This document shows positions 2,740 through 60,411 of a DNA stretch of 64,000 nucleotides, piece by piece. Every line of letters begins with the position of its first letter. Positions within the stretch are counted from its first letter, which is position 1. A program made the translations under genes and the position numbers. The stretch comes from an uncultured Syntrophomonadaceae bacterium (lineage in GTDB: Bacteria > Bacillota > Dethiobacteria > DTU022 > PWGO01): contig CAZWVJ010000001.1 of assembly GCA_964636865.1 (NCBI GenBank), forward strand, positions 118,687 through 182,686. The letters are read 5' to 3'. Below the pieces are notes generated by a model. That model searched no databases. It was not told the origin of the DNA and saw nothing but the letters and a program-made list of their open reading frames with translations.

Positions 2740-4153
2740 CACCTCCCGTTTCCGAAAGAGGTATTTCTATCTTAATAGCAGTTCCCTGATTTAGTGAAGA
2801 TTCCAGAGAGAAAGTTCCTCCTACAAGCTCAATCCTTTCTTGCATGGAAGTAAGCCCCATTCCTATCTTGCTTTCCCGGTTAACATTTTCCAGATCTATT
2901 CCAATGCCGTTATCCTCTATAACTACTTCTGCCATATCGGTAGTGGCATTGATGAAGATCCACACTTTACTAGCCTGTGCATGCTTGTAAATATTAGTTA
3001 AGGCCTCCTGGACGACCCGATAAATAGAAACCTCTATCTCCGACGGAAGCCTTCTTTCGTCCAGCCCGTATATTTGTAGGTTTATTTCCCAATCTTCTTG
3101 GTTTCTCCAGTACCTGTCAATAAAGGACTCGAGAGCCGCTTTTAATCCCAGGTCCACCAAAAGGGTGGGAGTTAGCTTCCAAGCCAGAAGTCGGACTTGT
3201 TCCAGAGACTGCATAAGTAGCTGGCGAAAATCCTCGATTTTTTCTTTTAATTCTGCAGTATCTTTGGAGTCTTCCATAAATTTTAAAGAGATCATGAGTG
3301 TACTTAAAGTGGGGCCTGTTTCATCATGGAGTTCCCGGGCTACCCGCTGCCGCTCCTCCTCCTGAGAATTAATTATCTTACCCAGGAGAGAATCGCGTGT
3401 TTTTTTGGTTTGTGAAAGACGCTGAGTCATAGAATTAAAGGCATCGGCCAGTTCACTTAACTCATCGCCGGTATTTACTTTTACCTGCTGGGACAAATCT
3501 CCTTCGGAAACAGCCTTCACCGAATTAAGGAGAGAATTAATTGGCTTAATAAAGGTAACCGTGGAAATAAAATAAACGCCGGTGCCGGTAACCAGAAAAG
3601 TAACCAGCGAAATAAGCAAAATCTGCCATGTGGTATCCGAGATAGCGGATTGTACGCTATAATCAATTACTCCCAGACGAACCATAATTTCCGGATCGGG
3701 TCCCTCAAACACAGGAGCGGCTATATCTCGGAGAATTCCTTTTTCCGTGGTGAATTTTTTAACATCGACCGGTTCGCTTCCACTTAAAGTATGCTCCACT
3801 TGAAAGAGATCAGGAGGGAAATAATCTTGAAATGTATGCACCAAAATATTTTCTTCTTCGTCCATCATCAACACGTAAATCACGTCCTGGTTGTTTTCTT
3901 TGGTGCTATAAGCCAGGTCATAGAGGTCAAAGATATTGTTGGTTAAAGCCGGTTCTACGCTTCTGGCTGCCAGGTTTTGAGCCAGGGAAATACTTTTTTC
4001 ATTAAGCTGTTCCTCCAGGCGGGCCCTCAATGCCGTGTGAGCGTAAATCATGGTAATAAGAGTAAGAATCAAAGTAATTCCTAACACAATAGCTATAATT
4101 TTTACACGTATTCCCGGTAAAAATTTTTTGAGATAATTAGGCAGTCTTTTCAA
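2714..4153 (-). CDS. Sensor histidine kinase (HisKA_3/HATPase, NarL-partner type) with an extracytoplasmic sensor domain
   Basis: Two TM helices flank a roughly 150-aa extracytoplasmic segment, followed by HAMP, an H-box (RVARELHDETGPTLSTL) and an HATPase_c domain (DNGIGI ... GMGLTSM). Confidence 0.9.
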   Translation of the reverse strand: MKRLPNYLKKFLPGIRVKIIAIVLGITLILTLITMIYAHTALRARLEEQLNEKSISLAQNLAARSVEPALTNNIFDLYDLAYSTKENNQDVIYVLMMDEEENILVHTFQDYFPPDLFQVEHTLSGSEPVDVKKFTTEKGILRDIAAPVFEGPDPEIMVRLGVIDYSVQSAISDTTWQILLISLVTFLVTGTGVYFISTVTFIKPINSLLNSVKAVSEGDLSQQVKVNTGDELSELADAFNSMTQRLSQTKKTRDSLLGKIINSQEEERQRVARELHDETGPTLSTLMISLKFMEDSKDTAELKEKIEDFRQLLMQSLEQVRLLAWKLTPTLLVDLGLKAALESFIDRYWRNQEDWEINLQIYGLDERRLPSEIEVSIYRVVQEALTNIYKHAQASKVWIFINATTDMAEVVIEDNGIGIDLENVNRESKIGMGLTSMQERIELVGGTFSLESSLNQGTAIKIEIPLSETGGDENFIQNS

Positions 4154-6896: not shown

Positions 6897-6991
6897 GGAG
6901 AGATGGCTGAGTGGTCGAAGGCGCTCGCCTGGAAAGCGAGTAGGCGGGGCAAAACCTCGCCTCGAGGGTTCGAATCCCTCTCTCTCCGCCA
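6897..6991 (+). tRNA. tRNA-Ser (anticodon GGA), long variable arm, encoded CCA
   Basis: Cloverleaf readable by eye: acceptor GGAGAGA/TCTCTCC, anticodon stem CTCGC/GCGAG with loop CTGGAAA, long extra arm GGCGGGGCAAAACCTCGCC, T-arm GGGTTCGAATCCC, 3' GCCA. Confidence 0.9.
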
Positions 6992-7003
6992 TTTTTAATT
7001 TTA

Positions 7004-7273
7004 GGCCGTGCTAGACGGGAAGATAGCGGTGTCCTGAACCCGCAATCCGCTACAGCGGGGTTGAATTCCTGCCCGCGGCCTTTTAGTTCTCAGGGCTGCT
7101 TCAGGAAAGTGGTGAAGATGGTTTGGTCCTGTGCGGCGCAACCTCATGAACCCCGTCAGATCCGGGAGGAAGCAGCGGTAAGTGAGTAGTTGCGGGTGCC
7201 ACGGGGGCGCCGAACCGGAGCTAACTTCTTGAATTCCGCCTGGGAACGAAGGTCAAAGGTAGGTGCACGGCCT
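7004..7273 (+). ncRNA. ffs: Signal recognition particle RNA, long Bacillus-type (scRNA/ffs, with Alu domain)
   Basis: About 270 nt with terminal helix GGCCGTGC...GCACGGCC. Conserved domain IV sequence CAGATCCGGGAGGAAGCAGCGGTAAG, matching E. coli 4.5S GGAAGGAAGCAGC. Sits immediately upstream of dnaX, exactly as scr does in B. subtilis. Confidence 0.85.
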
Positions 7274-10247: not shown

Positions 10248-10775
10248 ATGGAATTTAAAGATTTGATCAAGAAACGCCGAAGTGTGCGTCGTTTTAAAGA
10301 AGATCTTTTGCCCCGGGATTTATTGCGTGATTTATTGGAGACGGCTCTTTATGCTCCTAGTGCCGGTAATGTTCAACCATGGAAGTTTACAGTGATCCAA
10401 TCAAACCACATAAAAGAAAAATTAGCAGCTGCAGCTTTAAATCAGAGATGGATAGCAGAGGCTCCGACAGTAGTAGTGGTTCAGATTGATCTGGAGCGAG
10501 CATTTAAAACTTATGGCCAACGCGGCTCTTCGCTTTATGCTATTCAGGATACGGCGGCTACTATTCAGACAATGCTTCTGTATGCTACCTATAAGGGAAT
10601 TGCTTCTTGCTGGGTGGGTGCATTTGTTGAAAAAGAAGTGTCAAAAATATTATCCCTTTCTTCTAATTTGAGACCGGTGGCTCTCATTTCATTAGGTTAT
10701 GCTGCAGAGGATCCGCCAGCTCCACCCCGTAGAGCTGCGGAAGAAGTTATTGATTTTGAAGAAGATATTACATAA
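10248..10775 (+). CDS. Nitroreductase family protein
   Basis: KRRSVRRF...PSAGNVQPW motif typical of the NADH oxidase / nitroreductase fold. Confidence 0.85.
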   Translation: MEFKDLIKKRRSVRRFKEDLLPRDLLRDLLETALYAPSAGNVQPWKFTVIQSNHIKEKLAAAALNQRWIAEAPTVVVVQIDLERAFKTYGQRGSSLYAIQDTAATIQTMLLYATYKGIASCWVGAFVEKEVSKILSLSSNLRPVALISLGYAAEDPPAPPRRAAEEVIDFEEDIT

Positions 10776-30852: not shown

Positions 30853-30904
30853 TTAATTAATTTTGATATTATCTTAATATAATAAAATAATGATTAGTAG
30901 CAAA

Positions 30905-31195
30905 GAAAGGGCAAAGTAAGGTAGACATTTTATTTCTAAAGAGACACAAGGTCGTGGCTGAGAGCCTTGTGGAAATAAGTCTATCCGAAATTCACCCTGG
31001 AGCTGTCGGCTGAAATTCATATCTGAATAAGTAGGTCGGTCCGGGTTCTTCACCGTTATCAAGAAGCAGGTATAAGGAACCATCATGATAATAAAGTGGT
31101 TCTCGTACCGAGTAGAGAGAGTCGGGTAACCGGCTAAGTAGGGTGGTACCGCGGAAAATCACTTCACGTCCCTAAAGGGCGTGAAGTTTTTTATG
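30905..31195 (+). promoter_or_regulatory. T-box riboswitch leader (Phe specifier UUC) controlling aroF-pheA
   Basis: Canonical T-box sequence AGTAGGGTGGTACCGCGG at 31136-31154. Specifier-loop-like GAAAUUCA at 30986-30993. Terminator cttcacg tccctaaaggg cgtgaag plus U-run at 31162-31195. Downstream genes are Phe-pathway enzymes. Confidence 0.7.
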
Positions 31196-31297: not shown

Positions 31298-32335
31298 ATG
31301 ATCGTCGTTATGAATGTAAATGAAGAAGAACCGAAGGTAGAAGCTGTAAAAGACAAATTGCATCAAATGGGCTATAAAACGCACTTAATCTATGGAACAT
31401 CACGTTTGGTTATTGGTGCTATTGGTGATGAGTCTTCTGGAACTCCCACAGGGATAGAAACTATGCCTGGCGTGGAAAAAGTTATGCGAGTAATGGCTCC
31501 GTATAAGTTGGTAAGCCGGGAAGTTAAGAGTGATGATAGTATCATAGATATTGGAGAAGTAAAAATTGGAGGCAACGAATTAGTAGTTATGGCAGGCCCC
31601 TGTGCAATAGAAAGTTATGAACAGATTAGCGAAATTGCTAGTGGGGTACAAGAGAGTGGAGCCCAAATTCTAAGGGGGGGAGCGTTTAAACCTCGTTCTT
31701 CACCCTATAGTTTTCAGGGGCTTGAAGAAGAAGGATTACAGTTTTTAGCAAAAGTTCGTAGTGAAGTAAATTTGAAATTTGTGACGGAAGTTATTACCCC
31801 GGCTGATGTGGAGTTGGTGTCAGCTTATGCGGATGTAATTCAGGTAGGAGCCAGGAACATGCAAAATTATGCGCTCCTGCGTGAAGTAGGGCGCAGTGAA
31901 AAGCCTGTGCTGTTGAAAAGAGGTTTTGCTTCCACGATAGAAGAATGGTTGATGGCAGCCGAATATATAATGAATGAGGGAAATTATCAGGTCATTCTTT
32001 GTGAAAGAGGTATTAGAACTTTTGAAAATTACACCCGAAATACGTTAGATATTAGTGCAGTGCCTATAGTAAAACAACTTTCCCATTTACCGGTAATTGT
32101 AGATCCCAGTCATAGTGCCGGAAATTGGAAATTAGTTTCTGCACTTTCCAACGCAGCCATTGCGGCAGGAGCAGATGGAATTTTGGTGGAAGTGCACAAT
32201 GCTCCGGATGAAGCACTTTGTGACGGAGCCCAATCATTGACTTTAGAGAATTATCAACAGATGATGGGAGAATTGCAAAAAGTAGCCCGGGCTGTAGATA
32301 GAGATTTACCGCTTTTTACTGCTAAACCTGATTAG
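31298..32335 (+). CDS. aroF: 3-deoxy-7-phosphoheptulonate (DAHP) synthase, type I-beta with N-terminal regulatory domain
   Basis: KDO8P/DAHP synthase barrel motifs (LRGGAFKPRSSPYSFQGL, KRG catalytic region, VDPSHS); N-terminal ferredoxin-like extension. Confidence 0.9.
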   Translation: MIVVMNVNEEEPKVEAVKDKLHQMGYKTHLIYGTSRLVIGAIGDESSGTPTGIETMPGVEKVMRVMAPYKLVSREVKSDDSIIDIGEVKIGGNELVVMAGPCAIESYEQISEIASGVQESGAQILRGGAFKPRSSPYSFQGLEEEGLQFLAKVRSEVNLKFVTEVITPADVELVSAYADVIQVGARNMQNYALLREVGRSEKPVLLKRGFASTIEEWLMAAEYIMNEGNYQVILCERGIRTFENYTRNTLDISAVPIVKQLSHLPVIVDPSHSAGNWKLVSALSNAAIAAGADGILVEVHNAPDEALCDGAQSLTLENYQQMMGELQKVARAVDRDLPLFTAKPD

Positions 32336-56245: not shown

Positions 56246-56872
56246 ATGGAAGGGGAGAATATTTTGGAGTTCGATGAAGCTATAGAACAAAGACGCAGTA
56301 TCAGGTGTTATACGGAAGATCCTGTGCCAAAAGAGCTGATAAAAGAACTTATAGAAGCTGCAAGAAAGGCGCCTTCTGCTACAAACAGGCAACCCTGGCG
56401 GTTTTTAGTTGTTCAAGACGAAGATATGAAAAACCGATTGCAAGAAGGAATTGCCCAGTCTTTTGTAGTGAGAGCCCCAACAATCATTGTTTGCTGCCTT
56501 GATCGTCATACTTTTACCCGGCAGCTAATTGAAAAAAGGGTAGAAGAATTAATTGATGCGAATGTGATGAGTCGGGAAGTTGCAAATATGCTTTACCAGC
56601 GCAAACTTCCTCAAACGGTGGAAGAAACCGGGATTCCTGTTTCTGCATACCTCGACCTGGGAATTGCTGTAGAACAAATTGTTCTTAAAGCTACAAGTAT
56701 GGGGCTTGGGTCTTGCTGGGTGCGCATGTTTGATCAAGAAAGAGTTGGTGAGATTCTGAGTCTGCCTGTAGCAATAACACCTGTAGTACTGCTGCCGGTG
56801 GGTTATCCCGCAGAGGATCCATCAATGAGGCCAAGAATGTCTTTGGATGAAATTCTTTTGGACTTTATTTAA
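56246..56872 (+). CDS. Nitroreductase family protein
   Basis: RRSIRCY...PSATNRQPW motif. Confidence 0.85.
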   Translation: MEGENILEFDEAIEQRRSIRCYTEDPVPKELIKELIEAARKAPSATNRQPWRFLVVQDEDMKNRLQEGIAQSFVVRAPTIIVCCLDRHTFTRQLIEKRVEELIDANVMSREVANMLYQRKLPQTVEETGIPVSAYLDLGIAVEQIVLKATSMGLGSCWVRMFDQERVGEILSLPVAITPVVLLPVGYPAEDPSMRPRMSLDEILLDFI

Positions 56873-57056
56873 GAGGTTCAGGCAATGAATTGTGATAATC
56901 GGAATTATTGCATAAGAATTGAGAAAGTAATATAATGAAAACATCTTTTAAAGTAACATGAGATTATCTACGTATGAATATAAAGAGTTTTATATTATGG
57001 TAGTTATCTTTAATGTAGTTACTTCTAAAAGAAAAATTAAGAAAGGGGCATTAAAT

Positions 57057-57374
57057 ATGATTAATGTAACCAACCTAGCAGTGGAAAAATTTAAGGAGAT
57101 TTTGAAACAAGAAAACCAGGAAGATGCTTATATTCGGATTTATGTCAGTGGAACAGGTTGAGGAGGGCCCCAGATGGGGTTGGCTCTGGAAGAGTCAGTT
57201 AATAATGAAGAAGACCATGTAAAAGAGGTAGATGGGGTAAATTTTGTTTTTGCGGAAAAAGTTTTGAAGCACATTAAGGGGAAAGTGCTTGATTACAAAA
57301 ACGATGCTAATTATGAAGGTTTTACCATACTTGATGAAAACCCCGGTTCGGATTGCGGCGGATGCTGCGGTTAA
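57057..57374 (+). CDS. HesB/IscA-like iron-sulfur cluster assembly protein, putative selenoprotein (in-frame TGA at 57159-57161 read as Sec)
   Basis: ATG with RBS AAAGGGG. N-terminal half MINVTNLAVEKFKEILKQ...YIRIYVSGTG-TGA-GGPQMG continues in the same frame to DGVNFVF...DCGGCCG. The TGA falls where the HesB/IscA signature GGGCSG Cys sits. The ORF track shows two abutting same-frame ORFs (56958-57161 and 57174-57374). Confidence 0.65.
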
Positions 57375-57706: not shown

Positions 57707-58354
57707 ATGGCCAAAATCAGTGTTAGTTGGTTTGGGCATGCCATGTTTTTGATTGAAAGGCCGGGAATAAAGATTGTGACTGATCCTTATTCAACCGAAA
57801 TAGGTTATTCTTTTCCGGATATTGAGGCATCAGTTGTTACAATAAGTCATAATCATTTTGATCATAATAATGTTGAGGCTCTAAAAGGAGGTCCATTCGT
57901 AATAAAAGAACCAATGCCGTTGTTTTTTGGGCCTATACAATTTGAAGGTCTGATCACTGATCATGATAATTTCGGTGGAGAAGAAAGAGGGAAAAATATT
58001 ATATTCCGTTGGCAAATGGAAGGGATAACGTTTGCTCACATGGGAGATTATGGAGAAAACACACTTACCGATGATCAGAAAATGTTTTTGGCTCAAACTG
58101 ATGTATTGATGATTCCGGTAGGGGGAGTTTATACCATAAATGGTGAGCAGGCGCGCCAAATTATAGCGGAGGTAGCTCCAAAAGTAACTATTCCTATGCA
58201 CTATAAAACATCTCCTTTGAATATAAATATTGAGAGCATAGAAAATTTCGTGCAGGGTATGAATAATGTGCAGTATGTGGGTAAGGAAGCTTTTTTTGAA
58301 GCGGGAAAACTTCCAGTTGCTCCGGAAGTTTGGGTTTTAGATTTAGCATCTTAA
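57707..58354 (+). CDS. MBL-fold metal-dependent hydrolase (UPF0173-like)
   Basis: HxHxDH motif (SHNHFDHNN) plus later conserved His/Asp residues; 215 aa. Confidence 0.75.
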   Translation: MAKISVSWFGHAMFLIERPGIKIVTDPYSTEIGYSFPDIEASVVTISHNHFDHNNVEALKGGPFVIKEPMPLFFGPIQFEGLITDHDNFGGEERGKNIIFRWQMEGITFAHMGDYGENTLTDDQKMFLAQTDVLMIPVGGVYTINGEQARQIIAEVAPKVTIPMHYKTSPLNINIESIENFVQGMNNVQYVGKEAFFEAGKLPVAPEVWVLDLAS

Positions 58355-58504: not shown

Positions 58505-58930
58505 ATGAAAAGTTCCCATTTTATTCTCTTACTGATTTTAGACTTTGTTTTTTTAATTGCTGTCTTTCTTTTATTTACATATTATGGCATGACTCATTTG
58601 CTGCTTTTTATTATCGGCTTACTTATCTTGATTACGGGTTTTTATGACTTTAAAACCGGGATTTTTTCAGAATTGCTTTGCCAGTTGTTCAATTTTTCGG
58701 GTAAACAAAAAAAAGGGGGAATATATAATTTAATTCCACTGCTGATGTCTTTGGTGGTAATAGCTTATTCTATCCCTCAACTATTAGAACATGGGCTGAT
58801 AAATAGAGGTCAGGAAAGTTTAATGTCAGGAAATTATTTCTTTCAATTTGCGATTTGGTTGGTGGTTTTGAGTTTATTCTTATTAATTGCTGCCATTGGT
58901 TCCCAGTTCTGGAAAAAACGAAATAAATAA
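58505..58930 (+). CDS. Hypothetical integral membrane protein (4 predicted TM helices)
   Basis: 141 aa, strongly hydrophobic; no recognisable motif. Confidence 0.45.
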   Translation: MKSSHFILLLILDFVFLIAVFLLFTYYGMTHLLLFIIGLLILITGFYDFKTGIFSELLCQLFNFSGKQKKGGIYNLIPLLMSLVVIAYSIPQLLEHGLINRGQESLMSGNYFFQFAIWLVVLSLFLLIAAIGSQFWKKRNK

Positions 58931-58975: not shown

Positions 58976-60106
58976 TTATTCCATAGCTCCTATTTCATTA
59001 AGAGATGTTACAATTTCTTGGCGAACCTCTACATTATTTTCCCGGCGGAAGCAGCTATCCAGCGCCTGCTTTGCTTCATTTTCCTTGTACTGACCGAGCG
59101 ACCAGGCGGAATGTAATCTTATTATTGGGGAGGGGTCGTTTTGCAGTAGATTGGTTAAAGGCTTTATAACATTAATATTTTTGCTGTTACCCATGGCTAC
59201 GATAGCATTTCGACGCAATATCTGGCGACCTCGCCAATTTGCGGCGGTGTGGCCAAATGTTTTTTTGAAATTTTCTTTGCTCATATTTGAGCAAGCAATT
59301 AAAGGAAGCTCATCAGGTAAAATGGGAGGGTTTAAATTTTTTAACTGATTTTTATCTATTTTCCGGTTACGAGTGCAAACTTCTTGACATGTATCACAAC
59401 CATATAATTTGACTCCTAAGCTTTTTCTAAAAGCGCGGGGGATAATCCCTTTATTTTGCGTAATAAAAGAAAGGCAGCGCCAGGGATCTATTTGGAAAGG
59501 AGCAAATAAAGCTCCGGTAGGACAGGATTCCCGGCAAAGACCGCAGTTTAAACATGGTGGTGAAGGGGGTGTGATTTTGTGAGGGCTTAGAGGAATGTCT
59601 GTTAAGATCATTCCTAATGATACCCATGAACCACTAAAAGGAGATAAAAATGTAGTGTTTTCACCCAGTTCACCTCCTGCTTTATGTATAAATGCTCGTT
59701 CTAACAGCGGACTTGTATCGACGGAAATAAAGAAATTAAAAGTCGAGGGATAAAATTTTTCTATATACTTTATCAATTGAAAAGCTTTTTCCTGTAAGAC
59801 AGAGTGGTAGTCTTTTCCACGAGCGAATTCAGCAACTTTACCATAGGGCTCATTATTTGCCGGAGGTGATTTGGAAGCTGTCAGATAGGAAAGCGCAAAA
59901 CATATAATGCTTTGGCAACCGGGCAAACTTTGGCGCGGATTTATTCTCTTTTCAATAAATTTATTTTCAAAAGGAGATGCCAACCCTGCCTGAATGCGTT
60001 TCTCTAAATGAGGTTTTAGTTTATAAAGCGGATTGGCATTTATTATACCCGTAATTTCCATTCCAAGATGTATTGATTGATCAAGTATTTTTTTACTTAA
60101 ATCCAT
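58976..60106 (-). CDS. queG: Epoxyqueuosine reductase (tRNA queuosine biosynthesis), 4Fe-4S/cobalamin type with C-terminal HEAT repeats
   Basis: Two 4Fe-4S Cys clusters (CLNCGLCRESCP, CDTCQEVC); DUF1730-like N-terminal region; HEAT-like C-terminus. Likely start at MDLSKK after the AAAGGAGAAG RBS. Confidence 0.8.
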   Translation of the reverse strand: MDLSKKILDQSIHLGMEITGIINANPLYKLKPHLEKRIQAGLASPFENKFIEKRINPRQSLPGCQSIICFALSYLTASKSPPANNEPYGKVAEFARGKDYHSVLQEKAFQLIKYIEKFYPSTFNFFISVDTSPLLERAFIHKAGGELGENTTFLSPFSGSWVSLGMILTDIPLSPHKITPPSPPCLNCGLCRESCPTGALFAPFQIDPWRCLSFITQNKGIIPRAFRKSLGVKLYGCDTCQEVCTRNRKIDKNQLKNLNPPILPDELPLIACSNMSKENFKKTFGHTAANWRGRQILRRNAIVAMGNSKNINVIKPLTNLLQNDPSPIIRLHSAWSLGQYKENEAKQALDSCFRRENNVEVRQEIVTSLNEIGAME

Positions 60107-60180
60107 GAGAGAAACTTCTCCTTTCAGCACACAAATATTAAAGGATGTTTCATAAACTGTCAAATTAAGGAGGTAATTTC

Positions 60181-60411
60181 ATGAGTGAGGGTGAATGGGT
60201 CTTTTTAATAGAAGCAACAAATGAAACGGAAGCAGACATTATTTGTGGTTTTTTGCAGACCCATGAAGTACCGGCAAAAAAAGAATATAGCGGCCCGTTT
60301 TCTGGGTTAAAGGTCATTATGGGTCAGGAAGTAGGTGTAATCAGCATAATGGTTCCTTCAAATTTAAAGTCTCTTGCCCGGGACTTATTAGAGGAAATTG
60401 AGGAGAAATAG
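60181..60411 (+). CDS. Small DUF2007-like protein (putative signal-transducing, PII-like fold)
   Basis: 76 aa, strong RBS AAGGAGGT; family call is tentative. Confidence 0.4.
   Translation: MSEGEWVFLIEATNETEADIICGFLQTHEVPAKKEYSGPFSGLKVIMGQEVGVISIMVPSNLKSLARDLLEEIEEK

What the first reader, a model, noticed from the sequence alone, without database searches (positions are those of the whole stretch)
57057..57374. HesB/IscA-like Fe-S assembly gene interrupted by an in-frame TGA at the position of the conserved Cys: likely selenoprotein
Two abutting same-frame ORFs (56958-57161 and 57174-57374) make one IscA-sized product of 105 aa if TGA 57159-57161 is decoded. Upstream of the TGA the protein reads YIRIYVSGTG. 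Immediately after it comes GGPQMG, then the DGVNFVF core and a C-terminal DCGGCCG. This is the HesB/IscA architecture with the signature GGGCSG Cys replaced by the UGA codon. A good RBS (AAAGGGG) precedes the internal Met at 57057, not the ORF-track start. A short GC hairpin (gcccc agat ggggt) begins directly 3' of the UGA and could be a compact bacterial SECIS. HesB-like selenoproteins are reported in some anaerobes, and standard gene callers usually annotate them as two fragments or a pseudogene. The neighbouring tatA-fdhE-tatA-tatC-mobA cluster implies a formate dehydrogenase, typically a selenoenzyme, somewhere in this genome. That fits an organism with Sec-decoding capacity.
Basis: partly seen in the sequence, partly recalled or inferred. 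Interest (0 to 1): 0.75.

Follow-up and report, generated by a model that had tools for sequence, protein, structure and literature searches.

The report
Selenocysteine-encoding HesB/IscA-like gene
A small iron-sulfur-carrier-like gene of an uncultured soda-lake Firmicute uses a conserved in-frame UGA (selenocysteine) where relatives have the key cysteine; this is an ordinary new member of the known "HesB-like" selenoprotein family, which gene callers split in two.

Summary
Window 57057-57374 (+) is one 105-codon frame with a single TGA at 57159-57161. That codon aligns with Cys35 of E. coli IscA and gives the motif U-G-G-P, the published HesB-like selenoprotein motif UxGP.

The TGA is not a lesion:
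- It is kept in 17 aligned Bacillota homologues, down to about 39% protein identity, and at the equivalent site in three Nitrospirota homologues.
- dN/dS is below 1 on both sides of it.
- Sister Desulfosporosinus genes carry TGT at the same codon, and a Methanimicrococcus gene carries TGC.
- TGA is a normal stop elsewhere in the window.

The next hairpin, 57181-57197 (UGGCUCU-GGA-AGAGUCA), is a better candidate. Its GGA loop lies 26 nt after the UGA, its stem is kept in 17/17 relatives, and its synonymous sites are frozen.

Two relatives carry a tRNA-Sec gene 2-4 kb upstream of their copy. selA/B/C/D could not be examined in this genome itself.

Verdict: a new, unannotated member of a known selenoprotein family. 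Biochemical function, probably an A-type Fe-S carrier with a Sec ligand, is inferred only.

The parts
57042..57048 (+). Shine-Dalgarno sequence AAAGGGG, 8 nt upstream of the true start codon
   Evidence: Read directly. Relatives have AAAGGAG at the same place. Met1 is invariant in the family alignment.
57057..57374 (+). Complete coding sequence of the HesB/IscA-like selenoprotein: 105 codons including Sec35, plus the TAA stop at 57372-57374
   Evidence: Translation. PF01521 34.1 bits. TIGR00049 66 bits; best NCBIfam match NF038090 IscA_HesB_Se 66.7 bits. PDB relatives 1nwb (E=3e-13) and 2apn.
57159..57161 (+). In-frame UGA, read as selenocysteine (residue 35), in the motif G-U-G-G-P
   Evidence: Aligns with IscA Cys35. 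TGA 17/17 in Bacillota homologues; TGT in 4 Desulfosporosinus and TGC in Methanimicrococcus. UxGP motif is given in PMC13188914.
57181..57197 (+). Best SECIS candidate: hairpin UGGCUCU-GGA-AGAGUCA, with apical loop GGA at 57188-57190, 26 nt after the UGA. It overlaps codons 42-47 (L-A-L-E-E-S).
   Evidence: The 19-nt stretch 57180-57198 that contains it folds at -7.3 kcal/mol, z = -2.95. The 6-bp core is kept in 17/17 relatives with only wobble-compatible changes. Synonymous sites are frozen: xCT 17/17, CTG 17/17, GAG 17/17. They are relaxed in Cys forms. The motif is unique in the window.
57167..57180 (+). Probably incidental, or at most accessory.
   Evidence: -8.5 kcal/mol. Only 47% of cells are paired across 17 relatives, no better than slid controls. 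The Gly-Gly-Pro codons vary freely at third positions.
57354..57368 (+). C-terminal cysteine motif C100-G-G-C103-C104, equivalent to the C-x-C ligands of A-type carriers
   Evidence: C100 aligns with IscA Cys99. C100 is invariant in the family alignment.

Best explanation
Window 57057-57374 encodes a single 105-residue protein of the IscA/HesB (A-type Fe-S carrier) fold. Its first conserved cluster-ligand cysteine is replaced by selenocysteine, encoded by UGA 57159-57161.

Proposed decoding: SelB carrying Sec-tRNA(Sec) is recruited by a SECIS hairpin inside the coding sequence (57181-57197, GGA apical loop 26 nt after the UGA), so the ribosome inserts Sec instead of terminating.

Proposed function: the mature protein presents Sec35 together with the C-terminal Cys100/Cys103/Cys104. 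It most likely binds and passes on an Fe-S cluster or iron, or a related sulfur/selenium species, as the Cys-containing A-type carriers do.

Shown here: the frame, the homology, the Sec/Cys column, conservation of the UGA and of the hairpin, and purifying selection.
Inferred: actual Sec insertion in this organism, and the biochemical role. The role is unknown even for the experimentally verified archaeal HesB-like selenoprotein.
For: 1. Single frame with one TGA, a good SD sequence and a start conserved across the family.
2. With C at the TGA the protein passes PF01521 and TIGR00049. Its best NCBIfam hit is NF038090 'IscA_HesB_Se'.
3. Residue 35 aligns with Cys35 of E. coli IscA (1r94/1s98) and with the equivalent Cys of 1nwb and 2apn. 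C100 aligns with IscA Cys99.
4. The TGA is conserved in close soda-lake relatives L001-L007 and in 17 aligned Bacillota homologues down to about 39% identity. These are soda-lake 'Syntrophomonadaceae' MAGs, Dethiobacteria, Desulfotomaculum, one Desulfosporosinus and Effusibacillus. Three Nitrospirota homologues also carry it.
5. Four Desulfosporosinus genes have TGT and Methanimicrococcus has TGC at that codon. Hundreds of Cys forms exist in Desulfitobacteriaceae.
6. dN/dS against L012 is 0 for the N-terminal part and 0.10 for the C-terminal part. Against L007 it is 0.20 and 0.43.
7. TGA closes 8 of 46 long frames in the window, so the genome uses the ordinary code.
8. Hairpin 57181-57197 fits the published bacterial SECIS model: 3-9 nt loop, G in the first two loop positions, 16-37 nt spacing. 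It is structurally kept in 17/17 relatives, with codon choice frozen only there.
9. tRNA-Sec genes lie 2-4 kb upstream of the orthologue in L017 and L029. ARAGORN and Rfam RF01852 agree, at 74 and 72 bits.
10. HesB-like is a known selenoprotein family with motif UxGP. It was verified by 75Se labelling in Methanococcus maripaludis.
Against: - No selA, selB, selD or tRNA-Sec lies in the 64-kb window or in the loci of the closest relatives. The rest of the genome could not be read.
- The protein scores below the curated cutoffs of both Sec-named NCBIfam models: NF038090 66.7 vs 85, TIGR01911 44.4 vs 66.35. So do all clade members tested.
- The SECIS hairpin shows no double-sided compensatory changes. 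Its stem is nearly sequence-invariant, so the support comes from conservation, not covariation.
- Folded alone in 19 nt, the hairpin gives -7.3 kcal/mol, just short of the model's -7.5 threshold. The 42-nt stretch with both hairpins gives -15.8.
- No Rfam family matches.
- The C-terminal motif is CGGCC, not the canonical CxC.
Confidence: 0.88

Rival explanations
1. Pseudogene or assembly error: a Cys codon (TGT/TGC) mutated or was misread to TGA, and the gene is dead.
For: Gene callers in every public source split the gene into fragments of about 34 and 66 aa.
Against: - The same TGA occurs in independent assemblies and in 17 aligned Bacillota lineages.
- The frame is intact, and dN/dS is far below 1 on both sides.
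- An RNA-level constraint lies immediately downstream.
Confidence: 0.02
2. Two genuine small genes: translation stops at TGA and restarts at ATG 57174, using the SD-like GGAGGG (57162-57167), to give a 34-aa and a 66-aa peptide that assemble.
For: GGAGGG followed 6 nt later by ATG is present in the window. Databases hold many C-terminal fragments of 63-66 aa.
Against: - Codon 40 is Leu, Phe or Tyr (TTC, TAC, TTT and so on) in most relatives, so the restart codon is not conserved.
- The fragments in databases start at different codons.
- The split would cut a single compact domain exactly at its key ligand, where Cys homologues are continuous.
Confidence: 0.02
3. UGA is read as Trp or Gly (genetic code 4 or 25) or by near-cognate read-through, not as Sec.
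For: Several public protein entries show W at this position (P0004, P0005, P0014, P0020, P0026).
Against: - For the two entries checked at DNA level (P0004, P0005), the W is a TGA translated under code 4 by a pipeline, since the loci read TGA under table 11. The same is assumed for the other three.
- TGA terminates 8 of 46 long ORFs in this window.
- W or G at a metal- or redox-ligand Cys position makes no biochemical sense.
- tRNA-Sec sits next to the gene in two relatives.
Confidence: 0.03
4. It is a true selenoprotein, but it is not an Fe-S cluster carrier. It acts in persulfide/perselenide (S/Se) relay or detoxification, using Sec35 as the nucleophile.
For: - In relatives the gene follows an ArsR/SmtB (weakly BigR-like) regulator in 7 loci.
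- In L013 and L014 it follows an arsR gene and an 820-aa fusion of CoA-disulfide-reductase-like, rhodanese, TusA and DsrE domains.
- The function of the verified archaeal HesB-like selenoprotein is unknown, and its mutant has no nif phenotype.
Against: - The window's own copy has no such neighbours. It sits between a nitroreductase and an MBL-fold protein.
- Sequence similarity is to A-type carriers throughout, including the C-terminal Cys motif.
Confidence: 0.2

Closest known systems
HesB-like selenoprotein family (TIGR01911 'HesB_rel_seleno' and NF038090 'IscA_HesB_Se'; described in prokaryotic selenoproteome surveys, PMC1794560 and PMC13188914; 75Se-verified in Methanococcus maripaludis, PMC11097638)
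   Same: - IscA/HesB fold.
- Sec at the position of the first conserved Cys.
- Motif UxGP (here UGGP).
- SECIS inside the coding region just downstream of the UGA.
- Cys-containing orthologues in sister lineages, and Sec-to-Cys conversions with fossil SECIS-like sequence. This was reported for Desulfitobacterium hafniense and is seen here in Desulfosporosinus L026.
- Found in anaerobes.
   Different: - It scores below the curated cutoffs of both models (66.7 vs 85; 44.4 vs 66.35), as does its whole Bacillota clade.
- It carries a C-terminal CGGCC tail.
- The host is an uncultured haloalkaliphilic soda-lake 'Syntrophomonadaceae'/Dethiobacteria-like lineage. I found no report of this selenoprotein for that lineage in the papers I searched.
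A-type Fe-S cluster carriers IscA / SufA / ErpA (PF01521, TIGR00049; structures 1r94, 1s98, 1nwb, 2apn)
   Same: Same domain over its full length. It passes the PF01521 and TIGR00049 thresholds. The ligand positions equivalent to Cys35 and Cys99 are conserved.
   Different: - The first ligand is Sec rather than Cys.
- The C-terminal motif is C-G-G-C-C rather than C-x-C.
- The gene is not in an isc, suf or nif operon.
E. coli fdhF-type bacterial SECIS and the bSECISearch consensus model
   Same: Hairpin within the ORF downstream of the UGA, G-rich apical loop (GGA closed by U-A), and spacing within 16-37 nt.
   Different: - The loop G lies at +30/+31 rather than about +23. That E. coli figure is from my own knowledge, not from a tool result.
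- There is no evident bulged U.
- A separate, non-conserved small hairpin fills the spacer.

Membership tests
HesB-like selenoprotein | In-frame UGA that aligns with the conserved first Cys of the IscA/HesB domain | tested here: met
   Residue 35 aligns with IscA Cys35 and with the Cys of 1nwb and 2apn. The column is invariant C/U in alignments A2 and A5.
HesB-like selenoprotein | Sec-flanking motif UxGP | tested here: met
   The sequence reads G-U-G-G-P. The motif is listed in Table 1 of PMC13188914.
HesB-like selenoprotein | Cys-containing homologues at the same codon (the Sec/Cys pair criterion) | tested here: met
   TGT in Desulfosporosinus L025-L028 and TGC in Methanimicrococcus L030. Many Cys forms in Desulfosporosinus, Desulfitobacterium and Dehalobacter.
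HesB-like selenoprotein | [quoted passage not shown] | tested here: met
   Hairpin 57181-57197 has loop GGA, a 7-bp stem and 26-nt spacing. Energy is -7.3 kcal/mol for the 19-nt stretch 57180-57198 that contains it (borderline) and -15.8 for 57159-57200. It is conserved 17/17, with frozen synonymous sites. There is no double-sided covariation.
HesB-like selenoprotein | Score above the curated cutoff of NF038090 or TIGR01911 | tested here: not met
   NF038090 66.7 vs 85; TIGR01911 44.4 vs 66.35. The same holds for nine relatives. Both models are narrow subfamily models. The clade is best described as a separate branch of the same superfamily that also uses Sec.
HesB-like selenoprotein | Sec-decoding machinery (selA, selB, selC, selD) in the same genome | not testable with these tools
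   None in the window. Indirect support: tRNA-Sec lies next to the orthologue in L017 and L029.
HesB-like selenoprotein | Selenium actually incorporated (75Se labelling or mass spectrometry) | not testable with these tools
   This needs an experiment. It has been done only for the Methanococcus maripaludis member (PMC11097638).
A-type Fe-S carrier (IscA/SufA/ErpA) | Fe-S_biosyn domain above family thresholds | tested here: met
   PF01521 34.1 vs 26.3. TIGR00049 66 vs 58.8.
A-type Fe-S carrier (IscA/SufA/ErpA) | Three invariant Cys ligands, C-x(n)-C-x-C | tested here: inconclusive
   The first ligand is Sec. Cys100 aligns with IscA Cys99. The second C-terminal ligand is displaced (C-G-G-C-C).
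A-type Fe-S carrier (IscA/SufA/ErpA) | Binds and transfers Fe or an Fe-S cluster | not testable with these tools
   This needs a biochemical experiment.

The most novel reading that the evidence does not exclude
The Bacillota Sec-HesB clade may not be a housekeeping Fe-S carrier. It may be the selenium-containing end of a persulfide/reactive-sulfur (or selenium) handling module. In sister lineages the gene is co-oriented with an ArsR/BigR-like regulator. In two of them it also follows a fusion of CoA-disulfide-reductase-like, rhodanese, TusA and DsrE domains. In two others it lies next to tRNA-Sec. The window's solitary copy would then be a dispersed member of that system.
Probability: 0.15. 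Interest if true: 0.5.

Novelty: new member of a known kind. Interest (0 to 1): 0.25.

Why it matters
Mostly it matters for annotation. In every public source examined, this gene and its relatives are stored in one of two wrong forms. Some are split into fragments of about 34 and 66 aa. Others are mistranslated with Trp at the Sec codon. Selenoproteome and Fe-S biogenesis inventories of soda-lake syntrophic Firmicutes therefore miss it.

The result also implies that this lineage decodes Sec, which bears on its formate dehydrogenases and Wood-Ljungdahl metabolism. It provides a clean comparative data set: 17 Sec forms, several Cys forms and a sharply localised synonymous-site freeze. That set pins down the SECIS of this clade.

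It does not reveal a new kind of system.

Tried and rejected
- Rfam at gathering threshold on the window, and at permissive E-value on 57120-57260: no SECIS-like or other relevant family.
- Search for Sec machinery. ARAGORN and Rfam on the window found only tRNA-Ser and SRP RNA. NCBIfam on the selA/selB-sized ORFs at 33-46 kb returned mfd, spoVB, mazG, tilS, hpt and ftsH.
- Scan for other TGA-bridged genes in the window: none credible.
The 70-aa part after the TGA was used instead.
- The search for related loci with the broad alignment A2 failed for lack of a conserved stretch. It succeeded with the four closest sequences.
So I could not check whether RefSeq already annotates any of these as selenoproteins.
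- Promoter and terminator scan around the gene: nothing useful.
- Literature search for selenocysteine in 'Ca. Syntrophonatronum': no paper.
- Structure prediction was not run. Sequence matches to solved A-type carriers already fix the fold, and the tool returns no inter-residue distances.

Full report
**Observation**

Two same-frame ORFs, 56958-57161 and 57174-57374, abut. Translating 57057-57374 gives MINVTNLAVEKFKEILKQENQEDAYIRIYVSGTG*GGPQMGLALEESVNNEEDHVKEVDGVNFVFAEKVLKHIKGKVLDYKNDANYEGFTILDENPGSDCGGCCG*. That is 105 codons with one internal TGA at 57159-57161.

The start is ATG 57057, preceded by AAAGGGG at 57042-57048. Relatives have AAAGGAG there, and gene callers start their 34-aa N-terminal fragment at this Met. 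Met1 is invariant across the family. The longer ORF-track start at 56958 is not supported.

A scan of all six frames for TGA-bridged ORF pairs found no other credible case in the 64 kb.

**What the protein is**

With Cys placed at the TGA, the protein passes Pfam PF01521 Fe-S_biosyn (34.1 bits, cutoff 26.3). It also passes TIGR00049, the A-type carrier model (66 bits, cutoff 58.8). Its best NCBIfam match is NF038090 'IscA_HesB_Se' at 66.7 bits, below the cutoff of 85. TIGR01911 'HesB_rel_seleno' gives 44.4 bits against a cutoff of 66.35.

Against solved structures it matches Aquifex IscA 1nwb (E=3e-13), HI1723 2apn, and E. coli IscA 1r94/1s98. In those alignments residue 35, the TGA, falls exactly on the G-C-S-G cysteine (IscA Cys35). 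Cys100 falls on IscA Cys99.

**Is the TGA a lesion?**

No.
- Six contigs from soda-lake metagenomes and MAGs (L001-L006, 94-95% protein identity) and a more distant contig (L007, about 69% over the full length) carry the same TGA in the same frame.
- An exhaustive HMMER search with the part after the TGA returned 24 relatives. Many are 63-66-aa C-terminal fragments. Several full-length entries show 'W' at the position.
- The DNA of two of those entries reads TGA. The W is a pipeline translating under code 4.
- A scan of one genome per GTDB species found 30 loci. TGA sits at the codon in 14 Bacillota MAGs: soda-lake 'Syntrophomonadaceae', Dethiobacteria, Desulfotomaculum and one Desulfosporosinus. 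It is also TGA in Effusibacillus consociatus and in three Nitrospirota.
- The codon is TGT in four Desulfosporosinus and TGC in a Methanimicrococcus.
- A profile search found hundreds of full-length Cys forms in Desulfosporosinus, Desulfitobacterium and Dehalobacter.
- dN/dS is 0 and 0.10 (N and C parts, against L012) and 0.20 and 0.43 (against L007). Both halves are under purifying selection.
- TGA closes 8 of 46 long frames in the window, so the organism uses the standard code.

**The SECIS**

The published bacterial SECIS model asks for four things (PMC13188914):
- a 3-9 nt apical loop on a stem of at least 4 bp;
- a G in the first two loop positions;
- 16-37 nt between the UGA and the loop;
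- an MFE of -7.5 kcal/mol or lower.

Two tandem hairpins follow the UGA.

Its loop starts only 10 nt after the UGA. Across 17 TGA-bearing relatives, only 47% of its pair cells are standard pairs, no better than slid controls. The Gly-Gly-Pro codons that form its 5' arm vary freely at third positions.

The second is UGGCUCU-GGA-AGAGUCA at 57181-57197. Its GGA loop, closed by U-A, lies 26 nt after the UGA. RNAalifold recovers its 6-bp core as the only consensus structure, and 17/17 sequences keep it. The only changes are U-A to U-G and G-U to A-U, plus one G-G mismatch in L018.

The codons under this second hairpin are frozen synonymously:
- Column 43 is always xCT (ACT 9/9; GCT in all eight Ala forms).
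- Leu44 is CTG 17/17, whereas invariant Leu16 uses six different codons.
- Glu46 is GAG 17/17, whereas other Glu columns are mostly GAA.

In the five Cys-form genes these positions drift (TTG, CTC, GAA, TTA, ACG), and the hairpin drops out of the predicted fold for the two folded. One Cys form, L026, keeps it. That resembles the fossil SECIS reported for the Desulfitobacterium hafniense HesB-like Cys form (PMC1794560).

The Nitrospirota genes have a different sequence after the UGA. They fold into a CCCC-U-GGA-A-GGGG hairpin with the same apical motif, further downstream.

Caveats:
- There is no double-sided covariation, because the stem hardly varies.
- The isolated hairpin gives -7.3 kcal/mol, marginally short of the model's threshold. 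The 42-nt stretch gives -15.8.
- Rfam has no matching family.

**Sec machinery**

The window holds only tRNA-Ser(GGA), SRP RNA and a T-box as RNA genes. The selA/selB-sized ORFs are housekeeping genes. tblastn with E. coli SelA/B/D, recalled from memory, finds nothing in the window or the fetched loci.

Indirect support comes from two relatives, L017 and L029 (46% and 44% identical proteins). Each has a tRNA-Sec(UCA) 2-4 kb upstream of its copy. ARAGORN calls it, and Rfam RF01852 confirms it at 74 and 72 bits.

The tatA-fdhE-tatA-tatC-mobA cluster at 60.6-63.4 kb is real. It is only circumstantial evidence for a selenium-dependent formate dehydrogenase.

**Organism and context**

The closest genome is MAG 'Syntrophomonadaceae bacterium B1Sed10_75' (GCA_003550565.1), from Kulunda soda-lake sediment. 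It belongs to the group discussed as haloalkaliphilic syntrophic acetate oxidisers with Wood-Ljungdahl genes and several formate dehydrogenases (PMC6295475).

In the window and in L001-L006 and L012, the gene stands alone between a nitroreductase (56246-56872) and an MBL-fold Lactamase_B_3 protein (57707-58354).

In sister lineages the context differs:
- An ArsR/SmtB regulator ends about 30 nt upstream in seven loci.
- In L013 and L014 the order is arsR, then an 820-aa fusion of CoA-disulfide-reductase-like, rhodanese, TusA and DsrE domains, then hesB(TGA).

This hints at a link to persulfide or sulfur-relay chemistry, but it does not apply to the window's copy.

**Rivals**

- Pseudogene or sequencing error: excluded by conservation and selection.
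- Split gene with restart at ATG 57174 behind the SD-like GGAGGG. The restart codon is Leu, Phe or Tyr in relatives, and the split would cut a single domain at its ligand.
- Code 4 or 25: excluded by normal TGA stops.
- Function other than Fe-S carriage: this stays open. The function of the 75Se-verified Methanococcus HesB-like selenoprotein is itself unknown (PMC11097638).

**Comparison and verdict**

HesB-like proteins are an established prokaryotic selenoprotein family with motif UxGP. Eleven bacterial members had already been counted in 2006, including Alkaliphilus and Symbiobacterium, with two Sec-to-Cys conversions (PMC1794560; PMC13188914).

This gene has every sequence-level hallmark: Sec at the Cys column, UGGP, a SECIS and Cys orthologues. 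It and its whole clade fall below the curated cutoffs of the two narrow NCBIfam subfamily models. It is therefore best called a new, so far mis-annotated member of a known kind, on a separate Bacillota branch.

Interest is modest.

Noticed in passing
L016, L017, L019, L020, L021, L023, L029 (arsR ends about 30 nt before hesB, e.g. L017 3675-3974); L013 1035-3871 and L014 1058-3875: In sister lineages the Sec-HesB gene follows an ArsR/SmtB regulator that is weakly BigR-like. In L013 and L014 it also follows an 820-aa fusion of Pyr_redox_2 (CoA-disulfide-reductase-like), rhodanese, TusA and DsrE_2 domains. This looks like a persulfide/sulfur-relay operon. The window's copy lacks these neighbours.
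   Followed up: partly
L017 1849-1942; L029 49-142: tRNA-Sec (anticodon UCA; Rfam RF01852 at 74 and 72 bits) lies 2-4 kb upstream of the Sec-HesB gene. It is followed by a transporter (L029 only), a MATE transporter and arsR.
   Followed up: yes
Proteins P0004, P0005, P0014, P0020, P0026 (loci L008-L011 for the first two): Public metagenome protein entries show Trp at the Sec position. For the two checked at DNA level (P0004, P0005) the codon is TGA, translated under genetic code 4 by the source pipeline. This is a database artefact that hides selenoproteins as 'GWGGP' proteins.
   Followed up: yes
L026 (Desulfosporosinus, TGT form), codons after the Cys; compare L025, L027, L028: One Cys-form gene still has the intact GCUCUGGAGGAGUCA hairpin sequence, a fossil SECIS. 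Its sisters have begun to lose it. This is consistent with recent Sec-to-Cys conversion within Desulfosporosinus, where L024 still has TGA.
   Followed up: partly
L033, L037, L038 (Nitrospirota MAGs), match at 4001 onward: These IscA-like genes have TGA at the same Cys column, but the motif is G-U-S-T-S rather than UxGP. They have a different downstream hairpin, CCCC-UGGAA-GGGG, about 37 nt after the UGA, with the same U-GGA-A apical motif.
   Followed up: partly
window 57162-57176: GGAGGG (the Gly-Gly codons right after the TGA) followed 6 nt later by ATG mimics a Shine-Dalgarno sequence plus start codon. This is probably why gene callers confidently call the 66-aa C-terminal fragment.
   Followed up: yes
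window 58505-58930 (+) and 60181-60411 (+): A 141-aa ORF has no family match. Its only Pfam hit is a sub-threshold one, EII-GUT. It is conserved next to the MBL-fold gene in the soda-lake relatives (L001 11287-11712). A 76-aa ORF lies upstream of tatA and also appears in L001 (12961-13191). Both are of unknown function.
   Followed up: no
window 10248-10775 vs 56246-56872: A second nitroreductase-family paralogue lies in the window. It is 33% identical to the one directly upstream of the selenoprotein gene.
   Followed up: no
window 6897-7270 and 30894-31176: tRNA-Ser(GGA) is immediately followed by the large SRP RNA. A T-box leader lies upstream of the ORF at 31298-32335.
   Followed up: no
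window 58976-60163 (-): A QueG-like epoxyqueuosine reductase (DUF1730, 4Fe-4S and HEAT domains) lies 1.6 kb downstream of the HesB-like gene. It is an Fe-S enzyme, but there is no evidence of a functional link.
   Followed up: no
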